Below are positions 811 through 41,652 of a stretch of 43,487 nt of DNA, in pieces. Position 1 is the stretch's first letter; each line of letters starts with the position of its first letter. Made by a program: the position numbers and the translations under genes. The notes under the pieces are model-generated. The model saw only the letters and a list, made by a program, of their open reading frames with translations. It ran no database searches and was not told where the DNA came from. Source of the stretch: a virus; the IMG/VR virus record IMGVR_UViG_3300045988_009884; one strand, given 5' to 3'.

Positions 811-1029
811 ATGGCAGAAGAAGTAATTGTAATTAATGAACCTAACGAATTAAGCAGGGATTTCGAGGAAGGTACGATTCTGAATGTAGAAGACAAGGTT
901 CTCAAAGTTGAGAAAGATACTCGTGACGAAAGTGGCTGCGATGTGTGTGCCCTTGATAAAGAGGAACTGGGCGAGTATTGTGCTTGCGCATTTTGTGCTG
1001 AGTGTCACTTTATAGAGATTACGCTATGA
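811..1029 (+). CDS. Hypothetical small Cys-rich protein (CxxC...CxCxxCxxC)
   Basis: 72-aa ORF, ATGA-coupled to the next gene. Six Cys in the C-terminal 25 residues suggest a zinc-binding module. Confidence 0.5.
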   Translation: MAEEVIVINEPNELSRDFEEGTILNVEDKVLKVEKDTRDESGCDVCALDKEELGEYCACAFCAECHFIEITL

Positions 1030-1508
1030 ACGAGTTGTTTTTCCACGAATGCAGAGCCGCTGGGCTCGTATTCAAGACATCGAACGACTGGTTCAAGTGG
1101 CTGACCGATAACGGCTACGACATCAAGAAGCCGGTCGCAGAGCACGAAGGCTTCCAGTACAATATCAAGGATGAGTGCATCAATCCTCACGTAATCGAAT
1201 ATTCCATTGAGGATGCAGATAACTGGGGATGGAAGGTAATGACTGCCAACACCCAGTTCGGCTGGATATGGGGGTACAGTATTCAGAAGGGAAATTCCGA
1301 GTACGACAGCCCTGTTGCCTATCCGAGCAGATATGATGAACTCGGCATCTTCTACGGCAAGGAAAAAGAAGCAGTTCAAGATGCTCTGACCTGCATCATC
1401 GGAGACCTTGCGAAGAAGGCTGGAACGAAGTACATTAACCTTCTCATCTGGGCGGCTAAGAAGAAGCGGGCAGACATCATTCATCCGCAACAGGAACTTT
1501 TTAGATAG
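1026..1508 (+). CDS. Hypothetical protein
   Basis: In-frame ATG at 1026 overlaps the upstream stop (ATGA). The track ORF 1002..1508 has the same frame. Confidence 0.6.
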   Translation: MNELFFHECRAAGLVFKTSNDWFKWLTDNGYDIKKPVAEHEGFQYNIKDECINPHVIEYSIEDADNWGWKVMTANTQFGWIWGYSIQKGNSEYDSPVAYPSRYDELGIFYGKEKEAVQDALTCIIGDLAKKAGTKYINLLIWAAKKKRADIIHPQQELFR

Positions 1509-1529
1509 TTATGATAAACCGTATTGGCT

Positions 1530-1685
1530 ATGAACAGAGTTGATATAAAACTGGTCCGTGAGTGTGGGCTTCATCATCTGTCAGTTGGATATGATGACAT
1601 CTGGCTGGCAGATGATGAAATCAAGGCTCTCGAATGTATCCTCAAAGATTACAATGCGGACCCGAACAATTTTAAACGCAGATAA
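1530..1685 (+). CDS. Hypothetical 51-aa protein (tandem paralog of 1689..1814?)
   Basis: Hand-translated as MNRVDIKLVRECGLHHLSVGYDDIWLADDEIKALECILKDY.... It fills a gap on the coding strand and shares a V-G-x-x-D-[IF]-W-L-[AD] motif with the next small ORF. Confidence 0.3.
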   Translation: MNRVDIKLVRECGLHHLSVGYDDIWLADDEIKALECILKDYNADPNNFKRR

Positions 1686-1688
1686 GAA

Positions 1689-1814
1689 ATGAAGAAGATA
1701 GAAATCATCAATGACAATCATCATCATCACGTATACGTTGGCAACACCGACTTCTGGCTCGATACAATGGAGCTGATTGAGCTATACAAGAAACTCGGAC
1801 AAGAGAAATTATAA
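1689..1814 (+). CDS. Hypothetical 41-aa protein with a His4 run
   Basis: Hand-translated as MKKIEIINDNHHHHVYVGNTDFWLDTMELIELYKKLGQEKL. Begins 3 nt after the preceding stop. Confidence 0.3.
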   Translation: MKKIEIINDNHHHHVYVGNTDFWLDTMELIELYKKLGQEKL

Positions 1815-1834
1815 ACAATAAAAACATTCAGACA

Positions 1835-3100
1835 ATGGAACAGAAAGATATTGATATTTACGAGATACTCAAAGATGAAGAGCGTGGTACAGAGCTATAC
1901 ACGCCAATATGTGGAAGGGTGTGGCACAGTGGAATGGCAAACGACAAGGACAGTGCGAAAGCAATCTGGACTGAGGACGAAGCTGGAAGAGAACACTTTT
2001 TCGACAAGAACGGAAAAGTCTCTAAAGAAGGAGAAGTTCTGCTCTTCCCTTCCAACGAAATGAGAGACTGGAACAAGTTCTTCAAGAAGGGAGACGTGCT
2101 CGTTCACAGAAACGGAGACGTACATGTTATCTTTGAAGGGTTTAAAGATAATTGCTACACAAGATTTAATTGCAAGCATTATCTTTGGAAAGAATATTTC
2201 GAAGATTATAGCAAAGAAAAATCCGAAATGATAACTTTTCTGTTTAATAAAGTTAGCGATGATGAAGCCAAGACATACATCAACACTATTGAGAAATTTT
2301 TGGGTGGCAAGTTGAACCGTGATACTCTGGAGATAGAGAATCCAGAGTTCAAGGATGGGGATGTTTTGTTCGTGAAATGTAAGGGCAGTGCTTTTATCGA
2401 AATCTTTAATTACTCTAAAAAGAATGGTGACTTATACGACCACGCTTCACTAGACACTACAACACATGAATTAGATATTAGTGGTGAATATAAAATATTC
2501 AAAGAGAATATCGTAGAAATTCGCCTTGCCACAGAAGAAGAGAAAAAACAGTTCTTCTCAGCTCTCGAAAAGGAAGGCAAACGATGGGATGCTGAGAAGA
2601 AGCAGATTGTTGACTTGAAGCCAACGTTTGAAATTGGTAAACTCTACGTTTTTAACGAGGAAGACGAGGACGGAGAGCTGGCAATTATAGGCGAACTTAT
2701 CGCCAAGAACGAAAGCGAGGACACGCTGACATTCGGCAACCAGTATGAGATTGAGACCGAGAATTTCGTGACCGACCAAGCCTTCGACCTGCGTATCAGC
2801 GTTAACAAGGAACTTCGAGAAGCGACAGAGAACGAAGTCGAACTGTTCAACAAACATTACGCCATCTGGAAGAAAGAGAAGGAGCAGCCTTGCTTCAAGA
2901 CCTTTGACAAGGTGCTGGTAAGGGATGGGGATAACGACAAATGGAATCCAGCCATCTTTATCGAATGCCAGTCTGGCGGGCAGTTCTCTGCCTTCAGTAT
3001 AACAGACGGCAACTCCTATCCGTTCAATCATTGCATACCGTTTGACGGTCACGAGTATCTGACAGGAACGAAACTTCCGGCAGATCATCTTCCGTATTAG
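1835..3100 (+). CDS. Hypothetical 421-aa protein with repeated F-K-x-G-D-V-L-type modules
   Basis: Long ORF. Repeated motifs are FKKGDVLVHRNGD, FKDGDVLFVKCKG, FEIGKLYVFNEED and FKTFDKVLVRDGD. Confidence 0.7.
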   Translation: MEQKDIDIYEILKDEERGTELYTPICGRVWHSGMANDKDSAKAIWTEDEAGREHFFDKNGKVSKEGEVLLFPSNEMRDWNKFFKKGDVLVHRNGDVHVIFEGFKDNCYTRFNCKHYLWKEYFEDYSKEKSEMITFLFNKVSDDEAKTYINTIEKFLGGKLNRDTLEIENPEFKDGDVLFVKCKGSAFIEIFNYSKKNGDLYDHASLDTTTHELDISGEYKIFKENIVEIRLATEEEKKQFFSALEKEGKRWDAEKKQIVDLKPTFEIGKLYVFNEEDEDGELAIIGELIAKNESEDTLTFGNQYEIETENFVTDQAFDLRISVNKELREATENEVELFNKHYAIWKKEKEQPCFKTFDKVLVRDGDNDKWNPAIFIECQSGGQFSAFSITDGNSYPFNHCIPFDGHEYLTGTKLPADHLPY

Positions 3101-10659: not shown

Positions 10660-11714
10660 GACAGAAAGAAGTGAATGGAATATCATTCAGCTATGCAGAG
10701 AGCATCGGATTTGCCTTCCTTCCCTGCATTATCAAGGCGAGCGGTACTATCGCTGCGCTTGAAGTAATCATCAAGGCCGGGGCGATAAGTAAGACGTACA
10801 GGGTTGATTCTTTTGGGAACAATGCAATCATGGACTATCGGGAGTATATCCAGGCGTTGTTCGATGGAAGGACCGACCCTGTTGTTGATTATTCCGCAGA
10901 CACAGGAGTAAGTAACCATGGCCAGAAAGTAACCATTACCGCAAGCGCATACAATGAAGCCGGAGAAACGGCTGCATCGTTTGATTTCTCAGTTTACTAT
11001 GTGTGGGGAGCAATCAGACGGAAAGAGACGTGGAACGGCTACAAACGGCTTACATGGTTTACTCATTATCCGTTCTCCTTCGGCCTGTACAATGAGGGGG
11101 AGACGAAACTTATTATCGGGTACAATAAAACACCATGGCATCTTCTCATTCTCAGCGAGGATGGTATCATCAACATTGGCGGCAAGGTTCTTCCAACGGA
11201 ATCAGATGTGGAGTTCTCTATGATATACACCTTCGAGGGAGAAATCAAGCAGGCAACCTTCGATGAGCACTTCGACTTAACCTTTTACCTTCAAGGCGGC
11301 AAGCAGACAGAATTGATGCTCATCGAGTACAATGATGCAGACGAGGGAGAATATCTCAGATGGGTAGACCGACATGGTTTTCTGCGCTACTGGCTATTTG
11401 CCAAGGGCGATGATGCGAGGACAGTGAGCAGCGATTCTGAGTTCATCCGGGATAATCTCTCTGAGTATCCATCCGGAAGGAGACAGAACTACCAGCGCGA
11501 GGATGCAATATCTCTCTGCGCTCCTCTGGTTGATGCTGAGACTTTCGACTTCCTTCAAGATGTGGCATCAAGCCCTGTGGTCGAGAGATACCTTGGTGGA
11601 GATGACTGGGAAGCGGTGACGATAAAGGCTGGAACGTTCACGAAGGGTGTCTCCATCCTTCAAGACTTCACCTGCGAAATGATTCTTAACAACACTAACA
11701 TACAGAGCTTATGA
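10656..11714 (+). CDS. Putative structural protein (352 aa)
   Basis: Long ORF, ATGA-coupled to both neighbours. Confidence 0.6.
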   Translation: MRQKEVNGISFSYAESIGFAFLPCIIKASGTIAALEVIIKAGAISKTYRVDSFGNNAIMDYREYIQALFDGRTDPVVDYSADTGVSNHGQKVTITASAYNEAGETAASFDFSVYYVWGAIRRKETWNGYKRLTWFTHYPFSFGLYNEGETKLIIGYNKTPWHLLILSEDGIINIGGKVLPTESDVEFSMIYTFEGEIKQATFDEHFDLTFYLQGGKQTELMLIEYNDADEGEYLRWVDRHGFLRYWLFAKGDDARTVSSDSEFIRDNLSEYPSGRRQNYQREDAISLCAPLVDAETFDFLQDVASSPVVERYLGGDDWEAVTIKAGTFTKGVSILQDFTCEMILNNTNIQSL

Positions 11715-29945: not shown

Positions 29946-30293
29946 ATGGCTATCGCAAGCAGTCTTCCAATATATCAACAGACTTATGAACTTGTCAGTA
30001 AACTTGTGGCATGGACCGAGAATTTTCCAAGGAAATACAAATATACCTTGGGAGAGAAACTCATCAATGTTGCTCTGGAGTTATTCGAATACATTCAACT
30101 CGCAAACATGAGCATCGAGAACAGATCGCGACATCTGGCCGGATTCACAATTAAGTTGGAATTATTGAAGACCCTGCTGCGTCTCTGCTTTGATAGAGAG
30201 CTATTCTCATATAAGCAAGAGGCAGACATTTGCAGACTTACGACCATCATTGGCAGACAGGCTACAGGCTGGGGAAGGTCGGGCAGGGTTTAG
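29946..30293 (+). CDS. avd: Accessory variability determinant (Avd), four-helix-bundle protein
   Basis: 115 aa, FPRKYKYTLGEKL motif, basic C-terminus, positioned between the target gene and TR. Confidence 0.75.
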   Translation: MAIASSLPIYQQTYELVSKLVAWTENFPRKYKYTLGEKLINVALELFEYIQLANMSIENRSRHLAGFTIKLELLKTLLRLCFDRELFSYKQEADICRLTTIIGRQATGWGRSGRV

Positions 30294-30440
30294 TACTGGT
30301 CCGATTCAAAAAGTGAGAGCATGATGCGGCTACGGCTCATCGTGGAAACGATTCTCTTAATTAATGGTCTCGTCACTGTCAAGCTACATTGTCAGTTGTA
30401 CGACATTGTAGAGCAGTTAAGATGTTTAGAGCGAGAAAAT

Positions 30441-30568
30441 AGCGGACGAATTACTGGTCGTGTGTAGAGAATTCGGGCACGAATGCGTGGAATCTGAATT
30501 TCGACAATGGCAATCGGAACAACAATGGTAAGGTTGACAACAGCAATCGGGTGCGTCCAGTTACGGCA
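30441..30568 (+). repeat. DGR template repeat (TR)
   Basis: 128-nt match to VR. By hand count it has 38 adenines and carries 12 AAY codons when read in the VR frame. Confidence 0.9.
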
Positions 30569-30599
30569 CTAGTTAAGGAAAAGTGGAGAACAAACGGAA

Positions 30600-31838
30600 A
30601 TGGTAAAGGGAGAGGATATTTTGATAGCACATTATGATTGCTACAAGGGGAAGGCATCTTCTCCGGACGCAATCAGATTCGTTGTAAATCTGTTCGAGAA
30701 CGTCACAGACTTGACGGATAGTATCAACAACAGGAGCTATCAGCCTTTGCCATCCATTACATTCGTTGTCTCCAAGCCTGTCTACCGTGAGGTCTTTGCT
30801 GCGAATTATCGCGATAGAGTTATCCACCATTATATTGCGCTGAGACTTGAACCTTTATTCGAGGGTATCTTCAGCGACAGAACCTTCAATTGCCGTGTCG
30901 GCAAGGGGCAGTTGGCTGGCGTCAAGCAATTGGCGGCAGACATCAAGGAAGTGAGCGAGAATTATACGAAGTCTTGCTGGTGTCTCCGTGGTGACATGAA
31001 GGGGTTCTTCATGAGCATTGCAAGGAAGGAACTTGCAGACAAGGTCGATGCGTTCATCGTTGAGAACTATAAGGGAGACGATATTGAAGACCTACGCTAT
31101 CTTTCTCGCATCACGATCATGAACGACCCAACGAAGAACTGCATCATGCGTTCTCCGAAAGAGGAAATGGCGAAAGTTCCTGTTGGTAAGACGTTACGGA
31201 CAAGCAAGAAGGGGTGCGGATTGCCGATTGGTAACTTGACAAGTCAGCATGATGCAAACTTCGACTTGAACGACTTCGATTGGATGTTTGACATCTTCCT
31301 TCATATATACTGGCATGGAAGGTATGTTGACGATTTCTACATGATTCATGCGCAGAAGGAAGTGTTGATTGCTTCAATTCCGAAAGTCAGAGAATATCTG
31401 GCAAGAATAGGCATCACGCTCCATCCTCGGAAAATCGAGTTGCAAGAGTGCAGCCGGGGTGTCAAGTTTACCGGGATGGTTGTCAAGAATGGAAGAATCT
31501 ACGCAAGCAACAGGACGGTTGCCAATTTCGAGAATCTCATCCACCACATGAACACCCTGCCGGAAGATTACTCAATCGAGCAACTGGAGCATTACGTCAG
31601 TTTGATTAATAGCTATCTCGGCTACATGAAGCATTGCGATAGCTACGACATCAGGAAGCGCATCATTCTTAAGATGGATTTGCGGTTCTATCGGCATCTG
31701 TATGTTCAAGGTCACTACGAATGTGTTCGCATAAAGAATAGGTACAAGAGACGAAATATCGTAATAAGGAAACTCGCAAACAAGAAGAATGCAATCATTC
31801 TCCTAGATAATTATTATAATGATACGAATACCAACTGA
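30600..31838 (+). CDS. DGR reverse transcriptase
   Basis: YVDD catalytic motif, IGNLTSQ (the DGR-specific [ILV]GxxxSQ motif), and an N-terminal YREVFAANYRDRVIHH block. Confidence 0.9.
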   Translation: MVKGEDILIAHYDCYKGKASSPDAIRFVVNLFENVTDLTDSINNRSYQPLPSITFVVSKPVYREVFAANYRDRVIHHYIALRLEPLFEGIFSDRTFNCRVGKGQLAGVKQLAADIKEVSENYTKSCWCLRGDMKGFFMSIARKELADKVDAFIVENYKGDDIEDLRYLSRITIMNDPTKNCIMRSPKEEMAKVPVGKTLRTSKKGCGLPIGNLTSQHDANFDLNDFDWMFDIFLHIYWHGRYVDDFYMIHAQKEVLIASIPKVREYLARIGITLHPRKIELQECSRGVKFTGMVVKNGRIYASNRTVANFENLIHHMNTLPEDYSIEQLEHYVSLINSYLGYMKHCDSYDIRKRIILKMDLRFYRHLYVQGHYECVRIKNRYKRRNIVIRKLANKKNAIILLDNYYNDTNTN

Positions 31839-33558: not shown

Positions 33559-33676
33559 GGTTAGAAAATGAACATGAAAATGCAAACAAAATTAAAATAC
33601 AACGGTGTTTGAAAAGAAAACACAAAATAAAAGTTAAATTATCGGGAAAATCATTCGGAGTATCGAAAAATATTAA

Positions 33677-33684
33677 TATCTTTG
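33677..33684 (+). promoter_or_regulatory. Bacteroidota -7 promoter motif TATCTTTG for the post-lysis small-gene operon
   Basis: Exact TAnnTTTG, 56 nt upstream of ATG 33740. Confidence 0.55.
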
Positions 33685-33739
33685 CGACGTGTTTGAGATA
33701 CAGACACTTAATCATTCGGCAATTAAAAAATATAGAATT

Positions 33740-33994
33740 ATGAAAAAGTCAACAGTTAAGGCAAACGTTTTAGAGTTCACTACTAAGTTCATCAACTCTA
33801 ACTTCCGTATCAAGGTCTTCGGACATACAGAGGATGGAAAGAAGATAAACACTCTCGTAGGTGTAAGCGGTATCTTGAAGCTCATCGGTGCAGAGTTATT
33901 CAACAAGTTCATCAAGAGAGCATTGAAGGCTGGTGCAGATGCTTGCAGATGCGCTCTCCGCAGGGGTCTGGTTGTAACATTGTATGCTAAGTGA
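33740..33994 (+). CDS. Hypothetical 84-aa protein
   Basis: ATG 33740 is in frame with the track ORF 33689..33994 and downstream of the promoter motif. Confidence 0.55.
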   Translation: MKKSTVKANVLEFTTKFINSNFRIKVFGHTEDGKKINTLVGVSGILKLIGAELFNKFIKRALKAGADACRCALRRGLVVTLYAK

Positions 33995-34012
33995 TTATAG
34001 GAGATTAAAACC

Positions 34013-34243
34013 ATGGCAAGAGCAAAATATTACATCAAGAAACAGGTTGAAGGCGAGGAAATCGATGAGTTGGCAAACTTTACACGCAAGGACAAGGCAG
34101 AGCAATTCTTGAACGGCTTGTTTAGGGAATATAAAAAAACCGATAATTTTTATCCTCACTGGGTACGCCAAGGTTATTTCAAGACTGAATTTGCATGCTT
34201 AGGATTGAATCGTACAACAGAGTATTGGATAGAAAAGTATTAA
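34013..34243 (+). CDS. Hypothetical 76-aa protein
   Basis: Track ORF, coding-strand packing. Confidence 0.5.
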   Translation: MARAKYYIKKQVEGEEIDELANFTRKDKAEQFLNGLFREYKKTDNFYPHWVRQGYFKTEFACLGLNRTTEYWIEKY

Positions 34244-34279
34244 CCAGCAGGGCGCAAGCCCTGCACAATATATCAAGAT

Positions 34280-34507
34280 ATGAAACAGTACATTTTGAAC
34301 GGCAAAAATAGCCTTGGGCAAGTTGATAGTCACATCGAAGACTACAGAACCAAGGAGAGAATGAAGCAGGGATTCTCTCGTATCAAGGAAGTCTTTAGAA
34401 ACAACCCACAAGCAGAAGTGCTGGAAGAAGGAGACAGACACTTCAAGGTTAAAATGAGTGGAGTGACATTCAAATATTACATCACGGAACGAGAAATATC
34501 AGAATAA
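34280..34507 (+). CDS. Hypothetical 75-aa protein
   Basis: Track ORF. Size and helix-then-strand layout are similar to 34013..34243. Confidence 0.5.
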   Translation: MKQYILNGKNSLGQVDSHIEDYRTKERMKQGFSRIKEVFRNNPQAEVLEEGDRHFKVKMSGVTFKYYITEREISE

Positions 34508-34514
34508 ATAGGCA

Positions 34515-34904
34515 ATGGATAAGATACATGTAGAATTGACCGAGAAGGAATATGAAGCATTGAGCGTCCTTCTCGATGCGTATAAGCGTCACAGAACATC
34601 CGATGAGGGTTTGGCGAACATTTCAGAAATGAAGTTCCTTCCTCATACAGACAGAGCAATATTAAACATTAAAAAACAATTTGACATGGGCAGCATCACT
34701 GAGAAGAACAACAGCGTAAAGTTTCTAGCGTTGACCGGGAAACAACTGGCAACGCTTCGCAATCTCCTGACGAGTGTTACGGATTTCACAACTGAAATCG
34801 GAAACGGATATCATCAGATGAAGAAGGATGACACGATCATCCATCCTAAGAGTTTTGAACAATATAAGGAATTGAAGAGCATCGTCTGGAAGGCTCAATT
34901 TTAA
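34515..34904 (+). CDS. Hypothetical 129-aa protein with two similar helical motifs
   Basis: LTEKEYEALSVLLDAY and LTGKQLATLRNLLTSV repeat within the ORF. Confidence 0.55.
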   Translation: MDKIHVELTEKEYEALSVLLDAYKRHRTSDEGLANISEMKFLPHTDRAILNIKKQFDMGSITEKNNSVKFLALTGKQLATLRNLLTSVTDFTTEIGNGYHQMKKDDTIIHPKSFEQYKELKSIVWKAQF

Positions 34905-34941
34905 AATCATCAGCCCTCGACATCACGGTTAAGTCAGTTAT

Positions 34942-35253
34942 ATGATTACGATTACCAATATTAGGTTTAATAAGATTGTTGCAAAGAACAATTTTAAATG
35001 GGAGAACACCGGATATCTTAAGGACGTTCTCGAAGAAGATAGTGAGAAAGAAGGTCTCAAAGGAATTGTTGAATCTGAAAAGGAAGCGAAGGAGTTCTTC
35101 CTTGATAAAGGTCACGAAGATATTAAGAAGAGTGTTGCCGGGGAAGCGATAGCATTTCTTGCTGATGGCTCAGCCGTATCAGTAAGATTGATACAGATTG
35201 AGTGCTTTGGTCTCCTTCAATTCAGATACGTAATTAAGGTTAGAAACATATAA
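34942..35253 (+). CDS. Hypothetical 103-aa protein
   Basis: Track ORF. Confidence 0.5.
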   Translation: MITITNIRFNKIVAKNNFKWENTGYLKDVLEEDSEKEGLKGIVESEKEAKEFFLDKGHEDIKKSVAGEAIAFLADGSAVSVRLIQIECFGLLQFRYVIKVRNI

Positions 35254-35265
35254 ATCGAGAGTAAT

Positions 35266-35796
35266 ATGAAGGAATACGACAAGATGCCAGCGCAAGCGGT
35301 GGTCGAGGTAATGACCAGCTGGGGAAGAACCTGCCTGCGAGAGATTGGGCGAGACCTTAAGGAAGGCACGGTGCTCGATGGCTATTATTACCCAGTAAGC
35401 AAGGCTTTCGACTTTTACTGGAAGGGAGAGGGCGCAATGCTGTGGATTGGAGACAACGGAAGGCTTGTCAGTCTTGGAGAAGGGCAGAAGCATAAATACA
35501 TGATGCTTGGTCGTATGCTATCCGATTGCAAGTACTTCCTTCGCTATCCATACTGGCGACACCTCTATTTCCCGAGCATCGCCCGGCATTGCAAGGAAAT
35601 GCGCCAGTTATGGCTGGAGTTGAATATTAAGCCGGAGTGGTTATCGTACAAGCAGATTGGCAGGCTCGAACATAAGATGAACAGAATGAAAACCAAGTTG
35701 GATAGACAACTGAAGATAGACCATTTAAAAGAGACAGAAGACAATGACAGAACAAGAGTACAGAGAAGCCCTGCACGAAATCAACGTGAAGGCTGA
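35266..35796 (+). CDS. Hypothetical 176-aa protein
   Basis: Track ORF. The C-terminal half is MLGRMLSDCKYFLRYPYW...LWLELNIKPEWLSYKQI. No family confidently recognised. Confidence 0.55.
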   Translation: MKEYDKMPAQAVVEVMTSWGRTCLREIGRDLKEGTVLDGYYYPVSKAFDFYWKGEGAMLWIGDNGRLVSLGEGQKHKYMMLGRMLSDCKYFLRYPYWRHLYFPSIARHCKEMRQLWLELNIKPEWLSYKQIGRLEHKMNRMKTKLDRQLKIDHLKETEDNDRTRVQRSPARNQREG

Positions 35797-36076
35797 GAAC
35801 GAAAGAAGAATACTGGCAAGAGCATTTGCTACTGAGCACAGCTCAGTTTTGGTAGGAGATTATATCAGCGACCACTGCGACACGATAAGGGTTGAAAGCT
35901 GGGAGATTTCGAAGAGAACCCACGAATACAACTCCTTGCCTTGCCTGGTATATCGCGGTATGACCTGCAAGAAGGATGGCACGCCACGAAAGAACCCGAA
36001 GAGGTGTAGCATCTATCAGTGCAACCTCTTGCGAGTAAATGGAGAACCAGTAAAGAATCACGGATATGGAGAATAA
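35744..36076 (+). CDS. Hypothetical 110-aa protein
   Basis: Track ORF. Overlaps the upstream gene by 53 nt, so the start is uncertain. Confidence 0.45.
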   Translation: MTEQEYREALHEINVKAENERRILARAFATEHSSVLVGDYISDHCDTIRVESWEISKRTHEYNSLPCLVYRGMTCKKDGTPRKNPKRCSIYQCNLLRVNGEPVKNHGYGE

Positions 36077-36233
36077 TAGAAGAAACATCAAGAGAACGAA
36101 GAAGGGTGCTGGTGTAACGGTCAAGCTAGTTGGCATACAGATAGACAACGACCTACTTCCGTATCTAAAAGAGCAATCGAACAGATCACGATTTATAAAT
36201 AATTTGCTTCGAGAGCATTTTTTAGGTAAATAG
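36066..36233 (+). CDS. Ribbon-helix-helix-like small DNA-binding protein (55 aa)
   Basis: Hand-translated as MENNRRNIKRTKKGAGVTVKLVGIQIDNDLLPYLKEQSNRSRFINNLLREHFLGK. This is a beta-strand then two-helix CopG/Arc-like pattern. Confidence 0.4.
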   Translation: MENNRRNIKRTKKGAGVTVKLVGIQIDNDLLPYLKEQSNRSRFINNLLREHFLGK

Positions 36234-36257
36234 TTTTGTGGTTTTGAATAAAAATCG

Positions 36258-36265
36258 TACCTTTG
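36258..36265 (+). promoter_or_regulatory. Bacteroidota promoter: -7 TACCTTTG with a TTTG -33 element 19 nt upstream (36235..36238)
   Basis: Both consensus elements occur with correct spacing. No protein-coding ORF follows before the terminator. Confidence 0.5.
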
Positions 36266-36270
36266 CATCG

Positions 36271-36346
36271 CTGAATGATTAAGGGTTTACGGTTTGCCCT
36301 TTTTGACCGGGTAGCATTGACTTTTTTTGCTACCCGGTTTTCTTTT
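36271..36346 (+). ncRNA. Candidate ~76-nt small RNA (5' seed CUGAAUGAUUAA, two hairpins, U-tail)
   Basis: Promoter motif directly upstream and a strong terminator at the 3' end. The 5' 12-mer is the exact reverse complement of 39541..39552 and 41472..41483. Confidence 0.35.
36306..36346 (+). terminator. Rho-independent terminator (11-bp perfect stem ACCGGGTAGCA/TGCTACCCGGT plus T-rich tail)
   Basis: Read directly. Lies between the convergent + strand operon and int. Confidence 0.75.
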
Positions 36347-36446
36347 GCCTATTTTTAGCCGCTCAGACGTGTTCTTATTGCATACATATAACTTGTACCA
36401 ATACACAATTTGAACCGCTCAGACGCGAAATGTGCGAAAAATAACA

Positions 36447-37613
36447 CTATTCTTTGCCATACAGGACGTAATCAATAACCTTGCGGTTGGCTTCATCTAC
36501 TCTCGATAGGTCCGCATTGATGTAAGTGCCAGTTACCCGAACCCCGAAGGAATGGCCGAGGGCAAGGGATATCGTATCTTTCGGTATGCCTAACTTGAAG
36601 GCCAGGGTTGCCCATGTGTGCCGGGCGTAGTAAGTTGTCAGCCCTGCCCGAATCCTCTTTAGGAATATATTAGTAACCATCCCAAACGAGCTGGCGTTGG
36701 CGTAGTGCTCGCAGAAAGAAAACAATCTATCCTTGCCGGGGTACTTATTTATAATTTCTGTTACTTCCGGCTGGATAAGAATAGAATATTGTTTGCCTGT
36801 TTTCAGTCTCTTGTACTCCATCCTTCCGTCCACGATATTATCTCTCGTAAGATTGTAGAGGTCGTGAACATTAATACCGATGAGCATGAACATTACCTTG
36901 AAGGCATCCAGCAGCTTTCTGTCTTTTTCCTTGATGTTTGCCGAAAAGACTTCCCTCAGTTCTTCGACCTTCAAGTCTCTCTTTTTCGTTGGCTCAATCG
37001 ACAGATCAAGACGTCTGAACGGGTAGTTGGTTGTCAGCTCATTGTCAATTGCGTAGTTGAATACTGCCGCAATGTGCCGTATACGTACGGTACGTGTGTT
37101 ATGGCAGTTTCCGATATTGAGAAGAAATAAATTGTACCTTTCGAGCCAGTCGCGGCTTACATCGTCAAGCAACAGCGTCTCCGAGGTCTTGTCGAACTGG
37201 GCGATGGTGTTCCATGTGACCGAATAGTTCTTTTTTGTCTTGTTTCCCATTTCCCTTGATGTGTACCGGACGAACATATCTTTCAAGGTGGCAGACTTCT
37301 TTCCGGCTGCTTCCCGTATGATGTTATCCCGAAGTTGCCGGGCAGAGATATCTCCACGATAATCTTCTGACATCTGCAGGCGCATCAGAATCCTATTATA
37401 ATAATCATACCTATCTCGCAGGTAATCGTTGAGGAAGTCACGGTCTGGGCGTTTCTTGATGCGGCATTGCCTTTTATCCCATTCATCTTTCTTGACTGAC
37501 TGACCGAGCGAAATAAAGGCAGTCTCCCCATGGTTGTTGACCGCAAGCCGGATGGAGAACGTACCATCAGCCTTCGCCCTTCTGGTATCTAGATATAACT
37601 TAATCGTTGCCAT
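36447..37613 (-). CDS. int: Tyrosine recombinase / phage integrase (Bacteroides type with N-terminal arm-binding domain)
   Basis: N-terminal MATIKLYLDTRRAKADGTFSIRLAV, C-terminal ARHTWATLA...LGHS...TGTYI (R-H-R-Y catalytic set). Confidence 0.9.
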   Translation of the reverse strand: MATIKLYLDTRRAKADGTFSIRLAVNNHGETAFISLGQSVKKDEWDKRQCRIKKRPDRDFLNDYLRDRYDYYNRILMRLQMSEDYRGDISARQLRDNIIREAAGKKSATLKDMFVRYTSREMGNKTKKNYSVTWNTIAQFDKTSETLLLDDVSRDWLERYNLFLLNIGNCHNTRTVRIRHIAAVFNYAIDNELTTNYPFRRLDLSIEPTKKRDLKVEELREVFSANIKEKDRKLLDAFKVMFMLIGINVHDLYNLTRDNIVDGRMEYKRLKTGKQYSILIQPEVTEIINKYPGKDRLFSFCEHYANASSFGMVTNIFLKRIRAGLTTYYARHTWATLAFKLGIPKDTISLALGHSFGVRVTGTYINADLSRVDEANRKVIDYVLYGKE

Positions 37614-37620
37614 TTTCTTT

Positions 37621-37643
37621 CATGCAGTTTATTTGCAGTTTAT
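37621..37643. repeat. 23-bp unit with two TGCAGTTT boxes 11 bp apart (copy A), 8 nt upstream of the int start codon
   Basis: CATGCAGTTTATTTGCAGTTTAT. 19/23 identical to 37831..37853. Confidence 0.7.
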
Positions 37644-37809: not shown

Positions 37810-38160
37810 TTATATAACAGCCTTCTTTTTCGTGCAGTTTCCTTGCAGTTTTTGAACGATTTCCGCATCGAATCCTGTTGAATAGAAACTGCCTTCTCCG
37901 AGAAGGAGCCAGAAGGGGTTGACCTTGTAATCTCTGACGAGATAGGCGAGGAGTGCTGGCCGGAACTGGCCGCATGCTTCCGGGTTACTCTTCATTGTAA
38001 CCAAGTTCGGGCGGTTCACGTTGTATCTGGTCGTGAAGGTCTTCAATCCTCTTATTACCTTATCAGCAGCAAGACGGTCTATCGCTGCGAAGAACCTATT
38101 GACTATTGTCACGGTCATTTCGTTTTTCTCTACTTCCATAATTCTGTTTTTGATAGGCAC
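37810..38160 (-). CDS. HTH DNA-binding protein, phage CI-repressor-HTH-like (start uncertain)
   Basis: The ...YKVNPFWLLLGEG ending of the HTH domain is typical of CI/XRE-type regulators. Alternative in-frame starts are at 38139 and 38118. Confidence 0.5.
   Translation of the reverse strand: MPIKNRIMEVEKNEMTVTIVNRFFAAIDRLAADKVIRGLKTFTTRYNVNRPNLVTMKSNPEACGQFRPALLAYLVRDYKVNPFWLLLGEGSFYSTGFDAEIVQKLQGNCTKKKAVI
37831..37853. repeat. 23-bp unit with two TGCAGTTT boxes 11 bp apart (copy B)
   Basis: CGTGCAGTTTCCTTGCAGTTTTT. Lies in the 3' end of CDS 37810..38160. Confidence 0.7.
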
Positions 38161-38760: not shown

Positions 38761-39135
38761 TTACTTACTAACGAGAGCGAGCAGAGCATCAATCTGTTTC
38801 TGCTGCGCTTCTATCTGTTTCTGCTGGAACTGGTTCTGTTGGCGCAAGACTTCATTCTCCCGGATCAATGCTTCTCCGTCAGCTGTGATGGTCTGCCTAA
38901 CGTTGGAACTATTCGATCCGTTGACATTTGAGCCTGCAACAGCAGTTTCGATACTTGCTGGAAGTGGAGAGTAAGCATCTACGATAGATTTCACTCTCTG
39001 AATAAAATCCGCTCTAAGGGTCTTCCTTGATAACCTTGCTTGGATATTCTGAGGGGTCGTGCCCATCTGCTTGGCGATATCGGTCATTGTCAGACCCGAT
39101 TTCTTTATGTATGCCTTTAAATCTTCTCCTGTCAT
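38761..39135 (-). CDS. CI-like repressor: XRE-type HTH plus Gln-rich coiled-coil C-terminus
   Basis: MTGEDLKAYIKKSGLTMTDIAKQMGTTPQNIQARLSRK is the HTH. The C-terminal RQQNQFQQKQIEAQQKQIDALL is coiled coil. The gene is divergent from the Cro-like gene. Confidence 0.65.
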   Translation of the reverse strand: MTGEDLKAYIKKSGLTMTDIAKQMGTTPQNIQARLSRKTLRADFIQRVKSIVDAYSPLPASIETAVAGSNVNGSNSSNVRQTITADGEALIRENEVLRQQNQFQQKQIEAQQKQIDALLALVSK

Positions 39136-39194
39136 AATTGTAAATGTATTTAAAATTAATTTAAACAGAATTAAAATACAATTGAAAAACAACT

Positions 39195-39266
39195 GAATTT
39201 CAAATTTTCTTCTTATCTTTGCAAACGAATTTCAAACAGAGTTTCAAAACTCTTTTGCAAAGATAA
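39195..39266. promoter_or_regulatory. Lysis/lysogeny switch: 13-bp perfect inverted repeat, each arm carrying TATCTTTG (face-to-face promoters), plus three GA[AG]TTTCAAA boxes
   Basis: TTATCTTTGCAAA at 39213..39225 and its exact reverse complement at 39254..39266. Boxes at 39195, 39227 and 39239. Confidence 0.6.
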
Positions 39267-39293
39267 ACAAAATAATTGAAAATACAAATAAAA

Positions 39294-39530: not shown

Positions 39531-39555
39531 TTATTCATCTTTAATCATTCAGCAC

Positions 39556-39648
39556 ATGAAAAAGTTTATTAAGCTGGTAACGAATGACAGTTTCATTGCT
39601 ACCATGTATGTATTAATGCTAGTCGGACTTTTATATATGAAAGGGTAA
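39556..39648 (+). CDS. 30-aa hydrophobic peptide (single TM helix)
   Basis: Hand-translated as MKKFIKLVTNDSFIATMYVLMLVGLLYMKG. Ends 3 nt before the next ATG. Start codon is 4 nt after the 12-mer 39541..39552. Confidence 0.35.
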   Translation: MKKFIKLVTNDSFIATMYVLMLVGLLYMKG

Positions 39649-41370: not shown

Positions 41371-41487
41371 TTTTCATTTTATAAAGTTATAACGTTTGCC
41401 CGAATCGCCACTGGGCAACCTATGGGGTGGGCTTCCATCAATAAAGCTAGGAAGGGAACCAGTGGCAACTTTTAATCATTCAGTAAT

Positions 41488-41652
41488 ATGACAGTAAAAC
41501 AATTAAGAGAAGCGATGAAAGGTCTCAAAGGAGACGTTTACGTAGAGGTTGTTATGCCAGCAAGCAAGGCTGGTTCAACATGGCACATGCCAGCAGAATC
41601 CGCATCAAAGAAGGATGGAAGATTCCAGCTCAGAATCAACAATCCGATGTAG
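41488..41652 (+). CDS. Hypothetical 54-aa protein
   Basis: Hand-translated as MTVKQLREAMKGLKGDVYVEVVMPASKAGSTWHMPAESASKKDGRFQLRINNPM. Start codon is 5 nt after the 12-mer 41472..41483. Confidence 0.4.
   Translation: MTVKQLREAMKGLKGDVYVEVVMPASKAGSTWHMPAESASKKDGRFQLRINNPM

What the first reader, a model, noticed from the sequence alone, without database searches (positions are those of the whole stretch)
36258..36346. Candidate trans-acting phage sRNA whose 5' seed is antisense to a 12-mer in front of three dispersed start codons
- **Transcription unit.** A full Bacteroidota promoter (TTTG at 36235, 19-nt spacer, TACCTTTG at 36258) is followed by no real ORF. It is followed by two hairpins and an 11-bp-stem terminator ending about 36346, giving a ~76-nt transcript.
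- **Seed.** The predicted 5' end is CTGAATGATTAA (36271..36282).
- **Exact target sites.** Its exact reverse complement, TTAATCATTCAG, occurs at 39541..39552 (ending 4 nt before the start codon of the 30-aa hydrophobic peptide) and at 41472..41483 (ending 5 nt before the start codon of a 54-aa ORF).
- **Third site.** TTAATCATTCGG at 33708..33719 lies in the leader of the first gene of the post-lysis operon. Its one difference would pair as G-U.
- **Extended pairing.** Flanking bases extend the duplexes to about 17, 18 and 14 bp, allowing G-U pairs.
- **Chance.** A given 12-mer is expected about 0.005 times in 87 kb of two-strand sequence.
- **Weaker matches.** A 10-nt match (ATCATTCAGC) lies at 10682..10691, just inside CDS 10656. 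A 9-nt match lies upstream of the capsid gene (from 19129).
- **Analogy and alternative.** Phage P1 c4 antisense RNA acts in trans on sites before icd-ant. The alternative is that the 12-mer is a protein operator.
Basis: partly seen in the sequence, partly recalled or inferred. Interest (0 to 1): 0.7.

Follow-up and report, generated by a model that had tools for sequence, protein, structure and literature searches.

The report
Prophage small RNA targeting own start sites
A temperate Prevotella/Segatella phage very probably makes a ~75-nt RNA whose free 5' end pairs with a short motif just upstream of the start codons of several of its own genes; relatives change the RNA and its sites together, which would make this the first such phage regulator predicted in Bacteroidota, although no one has yet shown that the RNA is made.

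Summary
CTGAATGATTAA (36271-36282) follows a full Bacteroidota promoter and precedes a small hairpin and a terminator. Its reverse complement lies 4-5 nt before two start codons (39541, 41472), and a G·U-compatible variant sits in a third leader (33708).

Comparative data support the small-RNA reading.
- **Conservation.** The unit sits just 3' of the integrase in more than 80 related prophage contigs, mostly from Segatella copri.
- **Co-variation.** Seed and sites change together. The variable position is A–U in the window, G·U in its closest relatives and U–A in the S. copri clade.
- **Independent lineage.** L001 has an unrelated seed, yet its best duplex falls on the same homologous start site.
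- **Wobble.** Departures in the core are almost all wobble-compatible. In one clade the DNA copies differ although the RNA still pairs, which argues against a protein operator.
- **Specificity.** The three sites are the seed's three best duplexes in the whole window.

The most likely mechanism is translational repression of a conserved ~30-aa membrane peptide, downstream early genes and an accessory operon.

Expression, direction of control and timing are untested. No Rfam family or published phage sRNA matches. I rate it a new variant of a known kind, comparable to P1 c4 or Bacteroides GibS.

The parts
36235..36265 (+). Promoter of the small RNA unit: -33 TTTG (36235-36238), a 19-nt spacer and -7 TACCTTTG (36258-36265). 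It starts 2 nt after the stop codon of the upstream small protein gene.
   Evidence: Sequence. Both boxes are conserved in clades I and II and in L001, while the spacer and flanks diverge. The consensus comes from PMC7366714 and from the S. copri preprint 10.1101/2024.04.05.588293.
36270..36349 (+). Predicted small RNA of about 75-80 nt. The 5' end is inferred from the promoter geometry and the 3' end from the terminator U-tract.
   Evidence: Fold. No ORF follows. There is no Rfam match. The same architecture occurs in four lineages with unrelated stem sequences.
36271..36282 (+). Seed CTGAATGATTAA, unpaired in the predicted structure. Pairing can extend to 36270-36286.
36281..36301 (+). Hairpin 1, a 6-bp stem (36281-36286 with 36296-36301).
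   Evidence: A hairpin occupies the same position in clade II (GTGGTCTCCAC) and in L001 (GGGTTTCGACCC), each with a different sequence.
36305..36349 (+). Intrinsic terminator: a 12-bp stem (36305-36316 with 36328-36339), an 11-nt loop carrying the conserved motif TGACTTTTT, and a U-tract.
   Evidence: repeat I2. On alignment A1 the helix is 98% paired and 5 of 10 pairs changed on both sides.
39541..39552 (+). Site B: TTAATCATTCAG, with 3 nt between it and the ATG at 39556 of a conserved ~30-aa membrane peptide (39556-39648). This is the second gene of the early operon. The duplex extends over 39537-39553.
   Evidence: (-22.5 kcal/mol, the best in the window).
41472..41483 (+). Site C: TTAATCATTCAG, with 4 nt between it and the ATG at 41488 of a 54-aa ORF. 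It lies just 3' of a conserved hairpin in the intergenic region after the 288-aa gene.
33708..33719 (+). Site A: TTAATCATTCGG in the 5' leader of the first gene (33740-33994, phrog_32997) of the accessory operon 33740-36233. It lies about 24 nt downstream of the -7 box TATCTTTG (33677-33684). The G would pair with U of the seed.
1820..1831 (+). Site E: AAAAACATTCAG, with 3 nt between it and the ATG of the 421-aa ORF at 1835. It has the clade-II form of the motif and matches only 7 contiguous nt of the window's seed, so it is probably a weak or non-cognate site.
   Evidence: The module 1023-2198 is about 90% identical to clade II, against 70-75% for the B/C region.
36066..36233 (+). Conserved 55-aa basic protein gene directly upstream of the RNA unit. 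Its ribbon-helix-helix-like pattern is unverified.
   Evidence: It is conserved in all four lineages. All 85 loci that carry it have the RNA unit downstream. There is no Pfam, PHROG or PDB sequence match, and the structure model has low confidence.
33647..33658 (+). Second copy AAAATCATTCGG, overlapping the -33 region of the operon-A promoter. It is conserved in clade I only and its role is unexplained.

Best explanation
The stretch 36235-36349 is a self-contained gene for a small trans-acting antisense RNA of a temperate Prevotella/Segatella phage. A host-type promoter starts transcription at about 36270, so the first 12-17 nt form an unpaired seed. A small hairpin and an intrinsic terminator follow. 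The seed pairs with a motif 3-20 nt upstream of the start codons of several phage genes. These are a conserved ~30-aa membrane peptide that sits just before the excisionase-like gene in the early operon (site B), the gene after the 288-aa early protein (site C), and the first gene of the accessory operon that ends right at the RNA gene (site A). Bacteroidota mRNAs lack Shine-Dalgarno pairing and depend on open, A-rich start regions, so a 12-17 bp duplex ending 3-4 nt before the AUG should block ribosome loading. It probably also lowers expression of the closely spaced downstream genes. Shown here: the sequence anatomy, the conservation of the unit, the co-variation of seed and sites, the wobble pattern, and the specificity of pairing. 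Inferred: that the RNA is made, where its 5' end lies, that the effect is repression, and that it acts in the lysogen as a second layer of silencing or as a threshold on leaky early transcription.
For: 1. Anatomy. There is a full -33/-7 promoter, no ORF, an unpaired 5' seed, a hairpin and a terminator, with z = -4.5.
2. Conservation. The unit is present in more than 80 relatives whose integrases are only about 58% identical. Promoter boxes and seed are conserved while the stems are replaced. In the terminator, 5 of 10 pairs changed on both sides and 98% of cells are paired.
3. Co-variation. The variable seed/site position is A-U in the window and L107, G.U in L108-L111, L113 and L116-L118, and U-A in clade II. 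It is never mismatched at homologous sites B and C in the 38 locus-site cases examined.
4. Independent lineage. L001 has an unrelated seed. Its best duplex in 18 kb (-30.4 kcal/mol) covers the start codon of the homologous peptide gene, and a 10-12 bp match lies at the homologous operon-A leader position.
5. Wobble bias. In clade-II operon-A sites, core changes are A>G or C>T in about 16 loci (5 distinct substitution types), against one C>A. There is no T>C or G>A.
6. Specificity. The three sites are the seed's top three duplexes in the window. Cognate duplexes beat non-cognate ones in every comparison.
7. Accessibility. The target leaders are weakly structured.
8. Precedent. Bacteroides GibS uses an unstructured 5' seed on translation initiation regions (PMC7366714).
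Against: There is no expression data. The S. copri transcriptome study lists no such RNA, although its catalogue starts at 75 nt and the strains may lack the prophage. E-type sites keep the clade-II form in clade-I phages, so co-variation is incomplete. Recent module exchange is a plausible reason but is not proven. L017 keeps a leader motif without the RNA unit. L121 is a mosaic of site forms. The L026 seed variant gives a C.A mismatch with its site. Only two or three independent evolutionary events underlie the co-variation. Co-variation alone would also be expected for a protein and its operators. A second copy at 33647-33658 overlaps a promoter -33 region. The direction of control and the time of action are inferred.
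Confidence: 0.66

Rival explanations
1. The 12-mer is a DNA operator for a phage DNA-binding protein, for example the conserved small protein encoded just upstream or the repressor-like HTH protein. The copy at 36271 would then simply be an operator over a promoter in the opposite orientation.
For: Heteroimmune phages are known to change a repressor and its operators together, so co-variation alone does not exclude this. The copy at 36271 lies at +1 to +12 of a promoter. Site A lies about 24 nt downstream of a -7 box, and a second copy overlaps that promoter's -33 region. A conserved small basic protein gene always accompanies the unit.
Against: In clade Ib the copy in the RNA gene (TTAACCATTCAG) differs from the sites (TTAATCATTCAG) at exactly the position that distinguishes the clades, yet it still pairs as G.U. 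Core substitutions are biased to wobble-compatible changes on the sense strand only. Sites B and C are not near promoters and sit 3-9 nt before start codons. The motif has no conserved dyad symmetry: AATCATT is palindromic in clade I but AAACATT in clade II is not. In L001 the match at site B is 13 + 7 nt with an internal loop and extends into the hairpin arm, and the match at site A has a different length. The predicted beta-strand residues of the small protein do not track the motif differences. All sites are in the sense orientation, and the only inverted copy is the one behind the promoter.
Confidence: 0.1
2. The RNA is mainly the antitoxin of a type I toxin-antitoxin-like pair, with the conserved ~30-aa hydrophobic peptide (39556-39648) as the toxin. 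The other sites would be secondary.
For: The peptide is conserved in all lineages and has a strongly hydrophobic C-terminal half. Site B gives the strongest duplex in the window and by far the strongest in L001.
Against: The RNA gene is 3.3 kb from the peptide gene, and roughly 40 kb away in the integrated prophage, rather than overlapping or adjacent as in known type I pairs. At least two other sites co-vary equally well. The peptide sits inside the early lytic operon, immediately before an excisionase-like gene. Toxicity is unknown.
Confidence: 0.12
3. The motif is primarily a translation or processing signal read by a protein or the ribosome. The antisense copy would be incidental, or would be kept similar by concerted evolution of a short repeat.
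For: In clade II the core AAACATTCAG recurs 3-10 nt before the ATG of five or more genes. E-type sites keep their form in clade I even though they mismatch that clade's seed.
Against: A 12-nt repeat is too short for gene conversion by homologous recombination (general knowledge, not tested here). The antisense copy always lies at the start of a conserved unit of promoter, hairpin and terminator with no ORF. L001 replaces the motif by an unrelated sequence at the same positions, together with its seed. The E module looks recently exchanged, at about 90% versus 70-75% identity.
Confidence: 0.07

Closest known systems
P1/P7 c4 antisense RNA (and the related P4 CI RNA)
   Same: A phage-encoded RNA of about 77 nt that acts in trans on more than one complementary site in the phage's own mRNA, near a ribosome-binding site. 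The RNA and its sites differ in step between related, heteroimmune phages (PMC12197685; the details on P4 are from my own knowledge).
   Different: There is no match to the C4 covariance model. The seed here is a linear 5' end rather than loops. The RNA has its own promoter and is not cut out of the target operon's leader. The sites lie in at least two separate operons. The host phylum lacks Shine-Dalgarno-dependent initiation and Hfq. An immunity function has not been shown.
GibS of Bacteroides thetaiotaomicron
   Same: [quoted passage not shown]
   Different: GibS is chromosomal, longer, and controls host metabolic genes. No sequence or Rfam relationship was found. Here the targets are the phage's own genes.
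P22 sar and lambda OOP antisense RNAs
   Same: Small phage RNAs that repress the phage's own regulatory genes by pairing at or near the start region (PMC12197685).
   Different: Those RNAs are encoded opposite their single target and are fully complementary to it. The element here is encoded 2.5-5 kb from its sites and uses a 12-17 nt seed on several targets.
Type I toxin-antitoxin pairs with a trans-encoded antitoxin (tisB/istR-1, zorO/orzO)
   Same: A ~30-aa hydrophobic peptide whose start region is complementary to a small RNA (own knowledge; peptide features).
   Different: The RNA gene is distant rather than adjacent. There are several additional co-varying targets. Toxicity is unknown.

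Membership tests
C4 antisense RNA family (P1/P7 c4, P4 CI; Rfam) | Matches the family covariance model | tested here: not met
   No hit at gathering threshold in the whole window, and no C4 hit at E <= 10 in 36200-36420.
C4 antisense RNA family (P1/P7 c4, P4 CI; Rfam) | Pairing segments displayed in loops, with the RNA processed from the leader of the operon it controls | tested here: not met
   The predicted seed is a free 5' end directly behind its own conserved promoter. Processing itself cannot be tested here.
C4 antisense RNA family (P1/P7 c4, P4 CI; Rfam) | RNA and target sites differ in step between related phages | tested here: met
   A-U, G.U and U-A states at the variable position, plus the unrelated seed and sites of L001.
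Trans-acting base-pairing sRNA of Bacteroidota (GibS type) | Host-type -33/-7 promoter, no ORF, intrinsic terminator | tested here: met
   The promoter boxes are conserved in all lineages.
Trans-acting base-pairing sRNA of Bacteroidota (GibS type) | Single-stranded seed complementary to translation initiation regions of several mRNAs | tested here: met
   This is complementarity only; binding was not measured.
Trans-acting base-pairing sRNA of Bacteroidota (GibS type) | A stable transcript is detected and the targets respond to it | not testable with these tools
   No transcript data are available. The S. copri transcriptome study does not list it.
Type I toxin-antitoxin | Small hydrophobic peptide whose start region is complementary to an antisense RNA | tested here: met
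   A 30-31 aa peptide with a maximal 15-aa hydropathy of 2.7-3.1, conserved in all lineages. Duplex data.
Type I toxin-antitoxin | The RNA gene overlaps or adjoins the toxin gene | tested here: not met
   The RNA gene is 3.3 kb away in the window, across the integrase and repressor genes, and at the opposite end of the integrated prophage (junction at about 37780).
Type I toxin-antitoxin | The peptide is toxic when made without the RNA | not testable with these tools
   This needs an experiment.
Protein operator set | The copies share the same DNA sequence at specificity-determining positions, in either orientation | tested here: not met
   In clade Ib the copy in the RNA gene has C where the sites have T.
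Protein operator set | Sites overlap promoters and show repeat or dyad symmetry | tested here: inconclusive
   The copy at 36271 and site A are promoter-proximal, and a second copy overlaps a -33 region. Sites B and C are not near promoters, and the dyad is not conserved in clade II.

The most novel reading that the evidence does not exclude
The RNA and its dispersed sites form an RNA-based immunity and threshold system for Segatella/Prevotella prophages. In this reading the RNA is made constitutively in the lysogen. It silences leaky early transcripts of the resident prophage and the early genes of incoming phages that share its seed. Seed and site divergence (A, G or U at one position, and a wholly different seed in L001) would then define immunity groups, as c4 does for P1 and P7. 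This would operate in a phylum where no phage sRNA has been described.
Probability: 0.3. Interest if true: 0.8.

Novelty: new variant of a known kind. Interest (0 to 1): 0.64.

Why it matters
Segatella copri is one of the most abundant human gut bacteria, and its prophages are essentially uncharacterised. No phage-encoded sRNA is listed for any Bacteroidota phage in a 2025 review (PMC12197685), and only a few base-pairing sRNAs are understood in this phylum, which lacks Hfq and Shine-Dalgarno-led initiation. This element offers a compact system with natural compensatory variants: one RNA and three to six start-site targets. It can be tested in cultured lysogens such as S. copri HDE04, H-2632 and HF1825. 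It could serve to study how sRNAs block translation in Bacteroidota and how gut prophages stay silent or exclude relatives. The seed and site pair could also be a portable, programmable repression module for these bacteria.

Tried and rejected
1. I tested whether the antisense copy is a fourth leader, for a minus-strand gene (TTAATCATTCAG-CG-ATG, ORF 35843..36268). I rejected this. The ORF is 8-228 aa long in relatives, three loci lack the ATG, and it is antisense to conserved + strand genes, including an LPD11-domain protein.
2. Rfam gave nothing at gathering threshold for the whole window, nor at E <= 10 for the element.
3. The GenBank phage collection gave no DNA match for the window region or for the clade-II unit. 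The nearest integrase is 37.6% identical.
4. I looked for more seed lineages. Exact and degenerate DNA patterns in IMG/VR and a search with the small-protein alignment returned only clade II and L001. The six 16-mer hits L081-L086 were unrelated contexts. The metagenome scan found two clade-I relatives.
5. I looked for operators shared between the RNA promoter and the switch region, to infer timing. None was convincing.
6. The S. copri transcriptome preprint and its supplements mention no phage RNA and contain no matching sequence.
7. I tried to verify the ribbon-helix-helix label of the upstream protein. There is no Pfam, PHROG or PDB sequence hit, and the single-sequence model has mean pLDDT 64 and shows only two helices, so the label stays unverified.
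8. A 1-mismatch 9-mer census was too noisy, so I replaced it with homology-anchored sites.
9. The 'D' site (TTAATCATTCAG in some clade-II loci) has no counterpart in the window and I did not pursue it.

Full report
**1. The observation.** TTTG lies at 36235-36238, followed by a 19-nt spacer, TACCTTTG at 36258-36265 and CTGAATGATTAA at 36271-36282. The reverse complement TTAATCATTCAG occurs on the + strand at 39541-39552 and 41472-41483, and TTAATCATTCGG at 33708-33719. That gives four copies at up to one mismatch against 0.41 expected, and none of 100 shuffles reaches four. The start codons follow at 39556, 41488 and 33740. The stretch 36266-36350 folds into a 15-nt free 5' end, a 6-bp hairpin and a 12-bp terminator with a U-tract, with z = -4.5 against shuffles. 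When the 16-nt seed is scanned against the whole window, its three best + strand duplexes are exactly these three sites (-22.5, -21.3 and -19.6 kcal/mol; next best -14.9). None of 40 shuffled seeds gives a third-best hit that strong.

**2. An artefact considered.** On the minus strand the copy reads TTAATCATTCAG-CG-ATG and opens a 141-aa ORF (35843..36268), so it could have been a fourth leader rather than an antisense copy. That ORF is not conserved. In relatives it is 8 to 228 aa long and three loci lack the ATG. It also lies antisense to + strand genes, one of which has a clear Pfam match (LPD11). The ATG is simply the complement of the CAT that follows the -7 box.

**3. Genome context.** The window is a temperate phage genome.
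- It carries structural genes, a reverse-transcriptase-like gene at 30600-31838 and lysis genes.
- An accessory operon runs from 33740 to 36233, followed by the small RNA unit.
- A convergent tyrosine integrase lies at 36447-37613 on the minus strand.
- Minus-strand genes follow, including a repressor-like HTH protein (38761-39192).
- The early operon runs from about 39226: a 78-aa protein, a 30-aa peptide, an HTH_17 excisionase-like protein, a 288-aa protein of phrog_3657, a 54-aa protein and a YqaJ exonuclease. It continues across the window ends.
- A close relative shows the prophage-host junction at about 37780 (L108).

**4. Relatives.**
- A search with the integrase returned 80 IMG/VR loci and Segatella copri genomes whose integrases are about 58% identical. 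I call this group clade II.
- One divergent contig, L001, is treated as lineage III.
- A degenerate DNA pattern found two metagenome contigs 91-95% identical to the window.
- Exact-protein look-ups returned 20 more loci, many from pig-gut assemblies.
- No GenBank phage record contains the element; the nearest integrase is 37.6% identical.

**5. The unit is conserved as a unit.**
- About 71 of 72 integrase-linked relatives with enough flank carry, just 3' of the integrase and convergent with it, the same arrangement: -33 box, -7 box, seed, hairpin, terminator.
- The boxes and the seed are conserved, while the hairpin and terminator sequences are replaced between lineages.
- All four lineages fold into the same architecture.
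- In the terminator, 98% of cells are paired and 5 of 10 pairs changed on both sides, one of them within clade II. Any two hairpins aligned in register would show such changes, so this mainly shows that a terminator is maintained.
- A 51-55 aa basic protein gene always precedes the unit. All 85 loci with that gene have the unit downstream.
- The clade-II promoter matches both the -7 and the rarer -33 consensus reported for S. copri.

**6. Seed and sites change together.** Three homologous sites are recognisable by their flanks. Site A is in the leader of the accessory operon. Site B precedes the ~30-aa peptide. Site C follows a conserved hairpin after the 288-aa gene.

| Lineage | Seed | Sites | Pair at the variable position |
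|---|---|---|---|
| Window and L107 (clade Ia) | CTGAATGATTAA | TTAATCATTC(A/G)G | A-U |
| L108-L111, L113, L116-L118 (clade Ib) | CTGAATGGTTAA | same as clade Ia | G.U |
| Clade II | CTGAATGTTTAA | TTAAACATTCAG | U-A |

At sites B and C the variable position is never mismatched in 38 locus-site cases. The flanks of site C are nearly identical between clades, so the switch is a clean point change.

L001 gives an independent case. Its unit has the same architecture but a different 5' end (CACCATTACCAAATTAAAAGGG). The best duplex in its 18-kb locus (-30.4 kcal/mol; 13 + 7 bp with an internal loop) covers the start codon of the homologous peptide gene. A 10-12 bp match lies at the homologous position of the operon-A leader.

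With seed-only queries every cognate duplex is stronger than every non-cognate one. Clades I and II give -15 to -21 against -10 to -13 kcal/mol, and L001 gives -13 and -25 against -3 to -8.

**7. RNA pairing or protein operator?** Co-variation alone would also fit a repressor and its operators. Five observations favour RNA.
- In clade Ib the DNA copies differ (C in the RNA gene, T in the sites) at the very position that separates the clades, yet the RNA pair is G.U.
- In clade-II operon-A sites, core substitutions are A>G or C>T on the sense strand in about 16 loci (five distinct substitution types). There is one C>A and no T>C or G>A. With five of six distinct types compatible and about one third expected, this is suggestive (p about 0.02 by my own rough binomial) but not strong.
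- Sites B and C lie far from promoters and 3-9 nt before start codons.
- The motif has no conserved dyad symmetry.
- In L001 the matches differ in length, are gapped, and run into the hairpin arm.

All sites are in the sense orientation. The only inverted copy is the one behind the promoter.

**8. What it probably does.** The leaders are weakly structured and the motif is accessible. That fits repression by occluding the start region rather than activation by opening a structure. Bacteroides GibS works this way, with an unstructured 5' seed on translation initiation regions (PMC7366714).

Site B is the start region of a conserved small membrane peptide of 30-31 aa. Clade II and L001 share the C-terminal VTLIFWRA, and the peptide's stop lies 2-5 nt before the ATG of the excisionase-like gene. 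Blocking it may therefore also lower expression of downstream early genes. In clade II the core AAACATTCAG recurs 3-10 nt before the ATG of further early genes, including the exonuclease gene and the homologue of the window's ORF 1835. The regulon there is therefore larger.

The promoter is a host-type consensus, and no operator is shared with the switch region. My working inference is constitutive expression in the lysogen, giving a second layer of silencing or a threshold on leaky early transcription. Late shut-off of early genes is equally compatible with the data.

**9. Evidence that does not fit neatly.**
- E-type sites keep the clade-II form in clade-I phages, for example window 1820-1831, so they match the window's seed over only 7 nt. 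The window's module 1023-2198 is about 90% identical to clade II, against 70-75% for the B/C region. Recent exchange is a plausible reason, but an independent role of the motif is not excluded.
- L017 has lost the small protein gene and the RNA unit but keeps the operon-A leader motif.
- L121 is a mosaic of site forms.
- The L026 seed variant gives a C.A mismatch with its site.
- A second copy at 33647-33658 overlaps the -33 region of the operon-A promoter, in clade I only.
- The co-variation rests on only two or three independent events.

**10. Comparison with known systems.**
- The closest in mechanism is the c4 RNA of P1 and P7, and P4 CI. That is a phage RNA of about 77 nt acting in trans on several sites near a ribosome-binding site, with RNA and sites differing in step between heteroimmune phages (PMC12197685).
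- The element here is not a member of that family. There is no covariance-model match, the seed is a linear 5' end, the RNA has its own promoter, and the sites lie in separate operons.
- It resembles GibS in design but is unrelated in sequence and is phage-borne.
- It shares with type I toxin-antitoxin pairs a small hydrophobic peptide target, but not the adjacent gene arrangement.
- A 2025 review of phage-derived sRNAs mentions no Bacteroidota example, and three other literature searches found none.

**11. Verdict.** I rate it a new variant of a known kind: a new family of phage-encoded, multi-target, 5'-seed antisense RNAs in Segatella/Prevotella prophages. Confidence in a functional link between the copies is high. 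I put confidence at about two thirds that the link is RNA pairing by a small transcript that represses translation.

Noticed in passing
window 36313-36327; L001 linker between hairpin 1 and the terminator: A short motif, (T)YGAYTYTTTT (TTGACTTTTTTT in the window, TCGACTTTTT in clade II, TCGACTTTCTT in L001), is conserved in every lineage of the RNA although the surrounding stems are replaced. It lies in the terminator loop in clades I and II and in a single-stranded linker in L001. It could be a second pairing or protein-binding site.
   Followed up: partly
window 33647-33658: A second copy, AAAATCATTCGG, lies 61 nt upstream of site A and overlaps the -33 region of the operon-A promoter. It is conserved in clade-I relatives only.
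   Followed up: partly
window 41407-41467: A conserved hairpin (GCCACTGG ... CCAGTGGC) lies immediately 5' of site C. Relatives keep ...G(T/C)GGCAAC before the motif whichever gene follows (the 54-aa gene, the 108-aa gene or another), so the motif belongs to this intergenic structure rather than to a particular gene.
   Followed up: partly
window 36353-36369 and 36409-36425: Two direct repeats, TTT(T/G)A(G/A)CCGCTCAGACG, lie 56 nt apart between the RNA terminator and the integrase stop codon. A related sequence occurs in inverted orientation in clade II (…CGTTCTGAGCCGC…).
   Followed up: no
window 37613-37641 and 37823-37851: Repeats of about 29 nt, each containing TGCAGTTT twice, flank the place where homology to the integrated relative L108 ends (about 37780). 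They are likely integrase-binding or attachment-site elements, and they imply that the window is permuted relative to the prophage.
   Followed up: no
window 39205-39270: The switch region holds two -7 boxes (TATCTTTG) facing each other on opposite strands, inside an inverted repeat (TCTTTGCAAA ... TTTGCAAAGA). Repeated GAATTTCAAA and GTTTCAAAAC motifs lie between them. These look like overlapping divergent or face-to-face early and repressor promoters with operators.
   Followed up: no
window 29946-31838: A 412-aa ORF with a reverse-transcriptase-like YVDD motif (30600-31838) follows a 115-aa ORF. This looks like a diversity-generating retroelement, but I did not check it with domain searches.
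   Followed up: no
window 1023-2198 compared with L009 and L046: This replication-region module is about 90% identical to clade-II prophages, while the rest of the early region is 70-75% identical. That points to recent module exchange between the clades.
   Followed up: partly
L017 1640-2400; L121 2895 and 5047: L017 has replaced the small protein gene and the RNA unit with unrelated DNA but keeps the operon-A leader motif. L121 carries a clade-II-type site B and a clade-I-type site C in one genome.
   Followed up: partly
L008, L009 and L015, about 6 kb beyond the integrase: Some clade-II prophages carry the window-type 12-mer TTAATCATTCAG (variants TTAATCACTCAG and TTAATCATCCAG) after GCCGATTTGT(G/A)T. 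There is no counterpart in the window and its meaning is unknown.
   Followed up: partly
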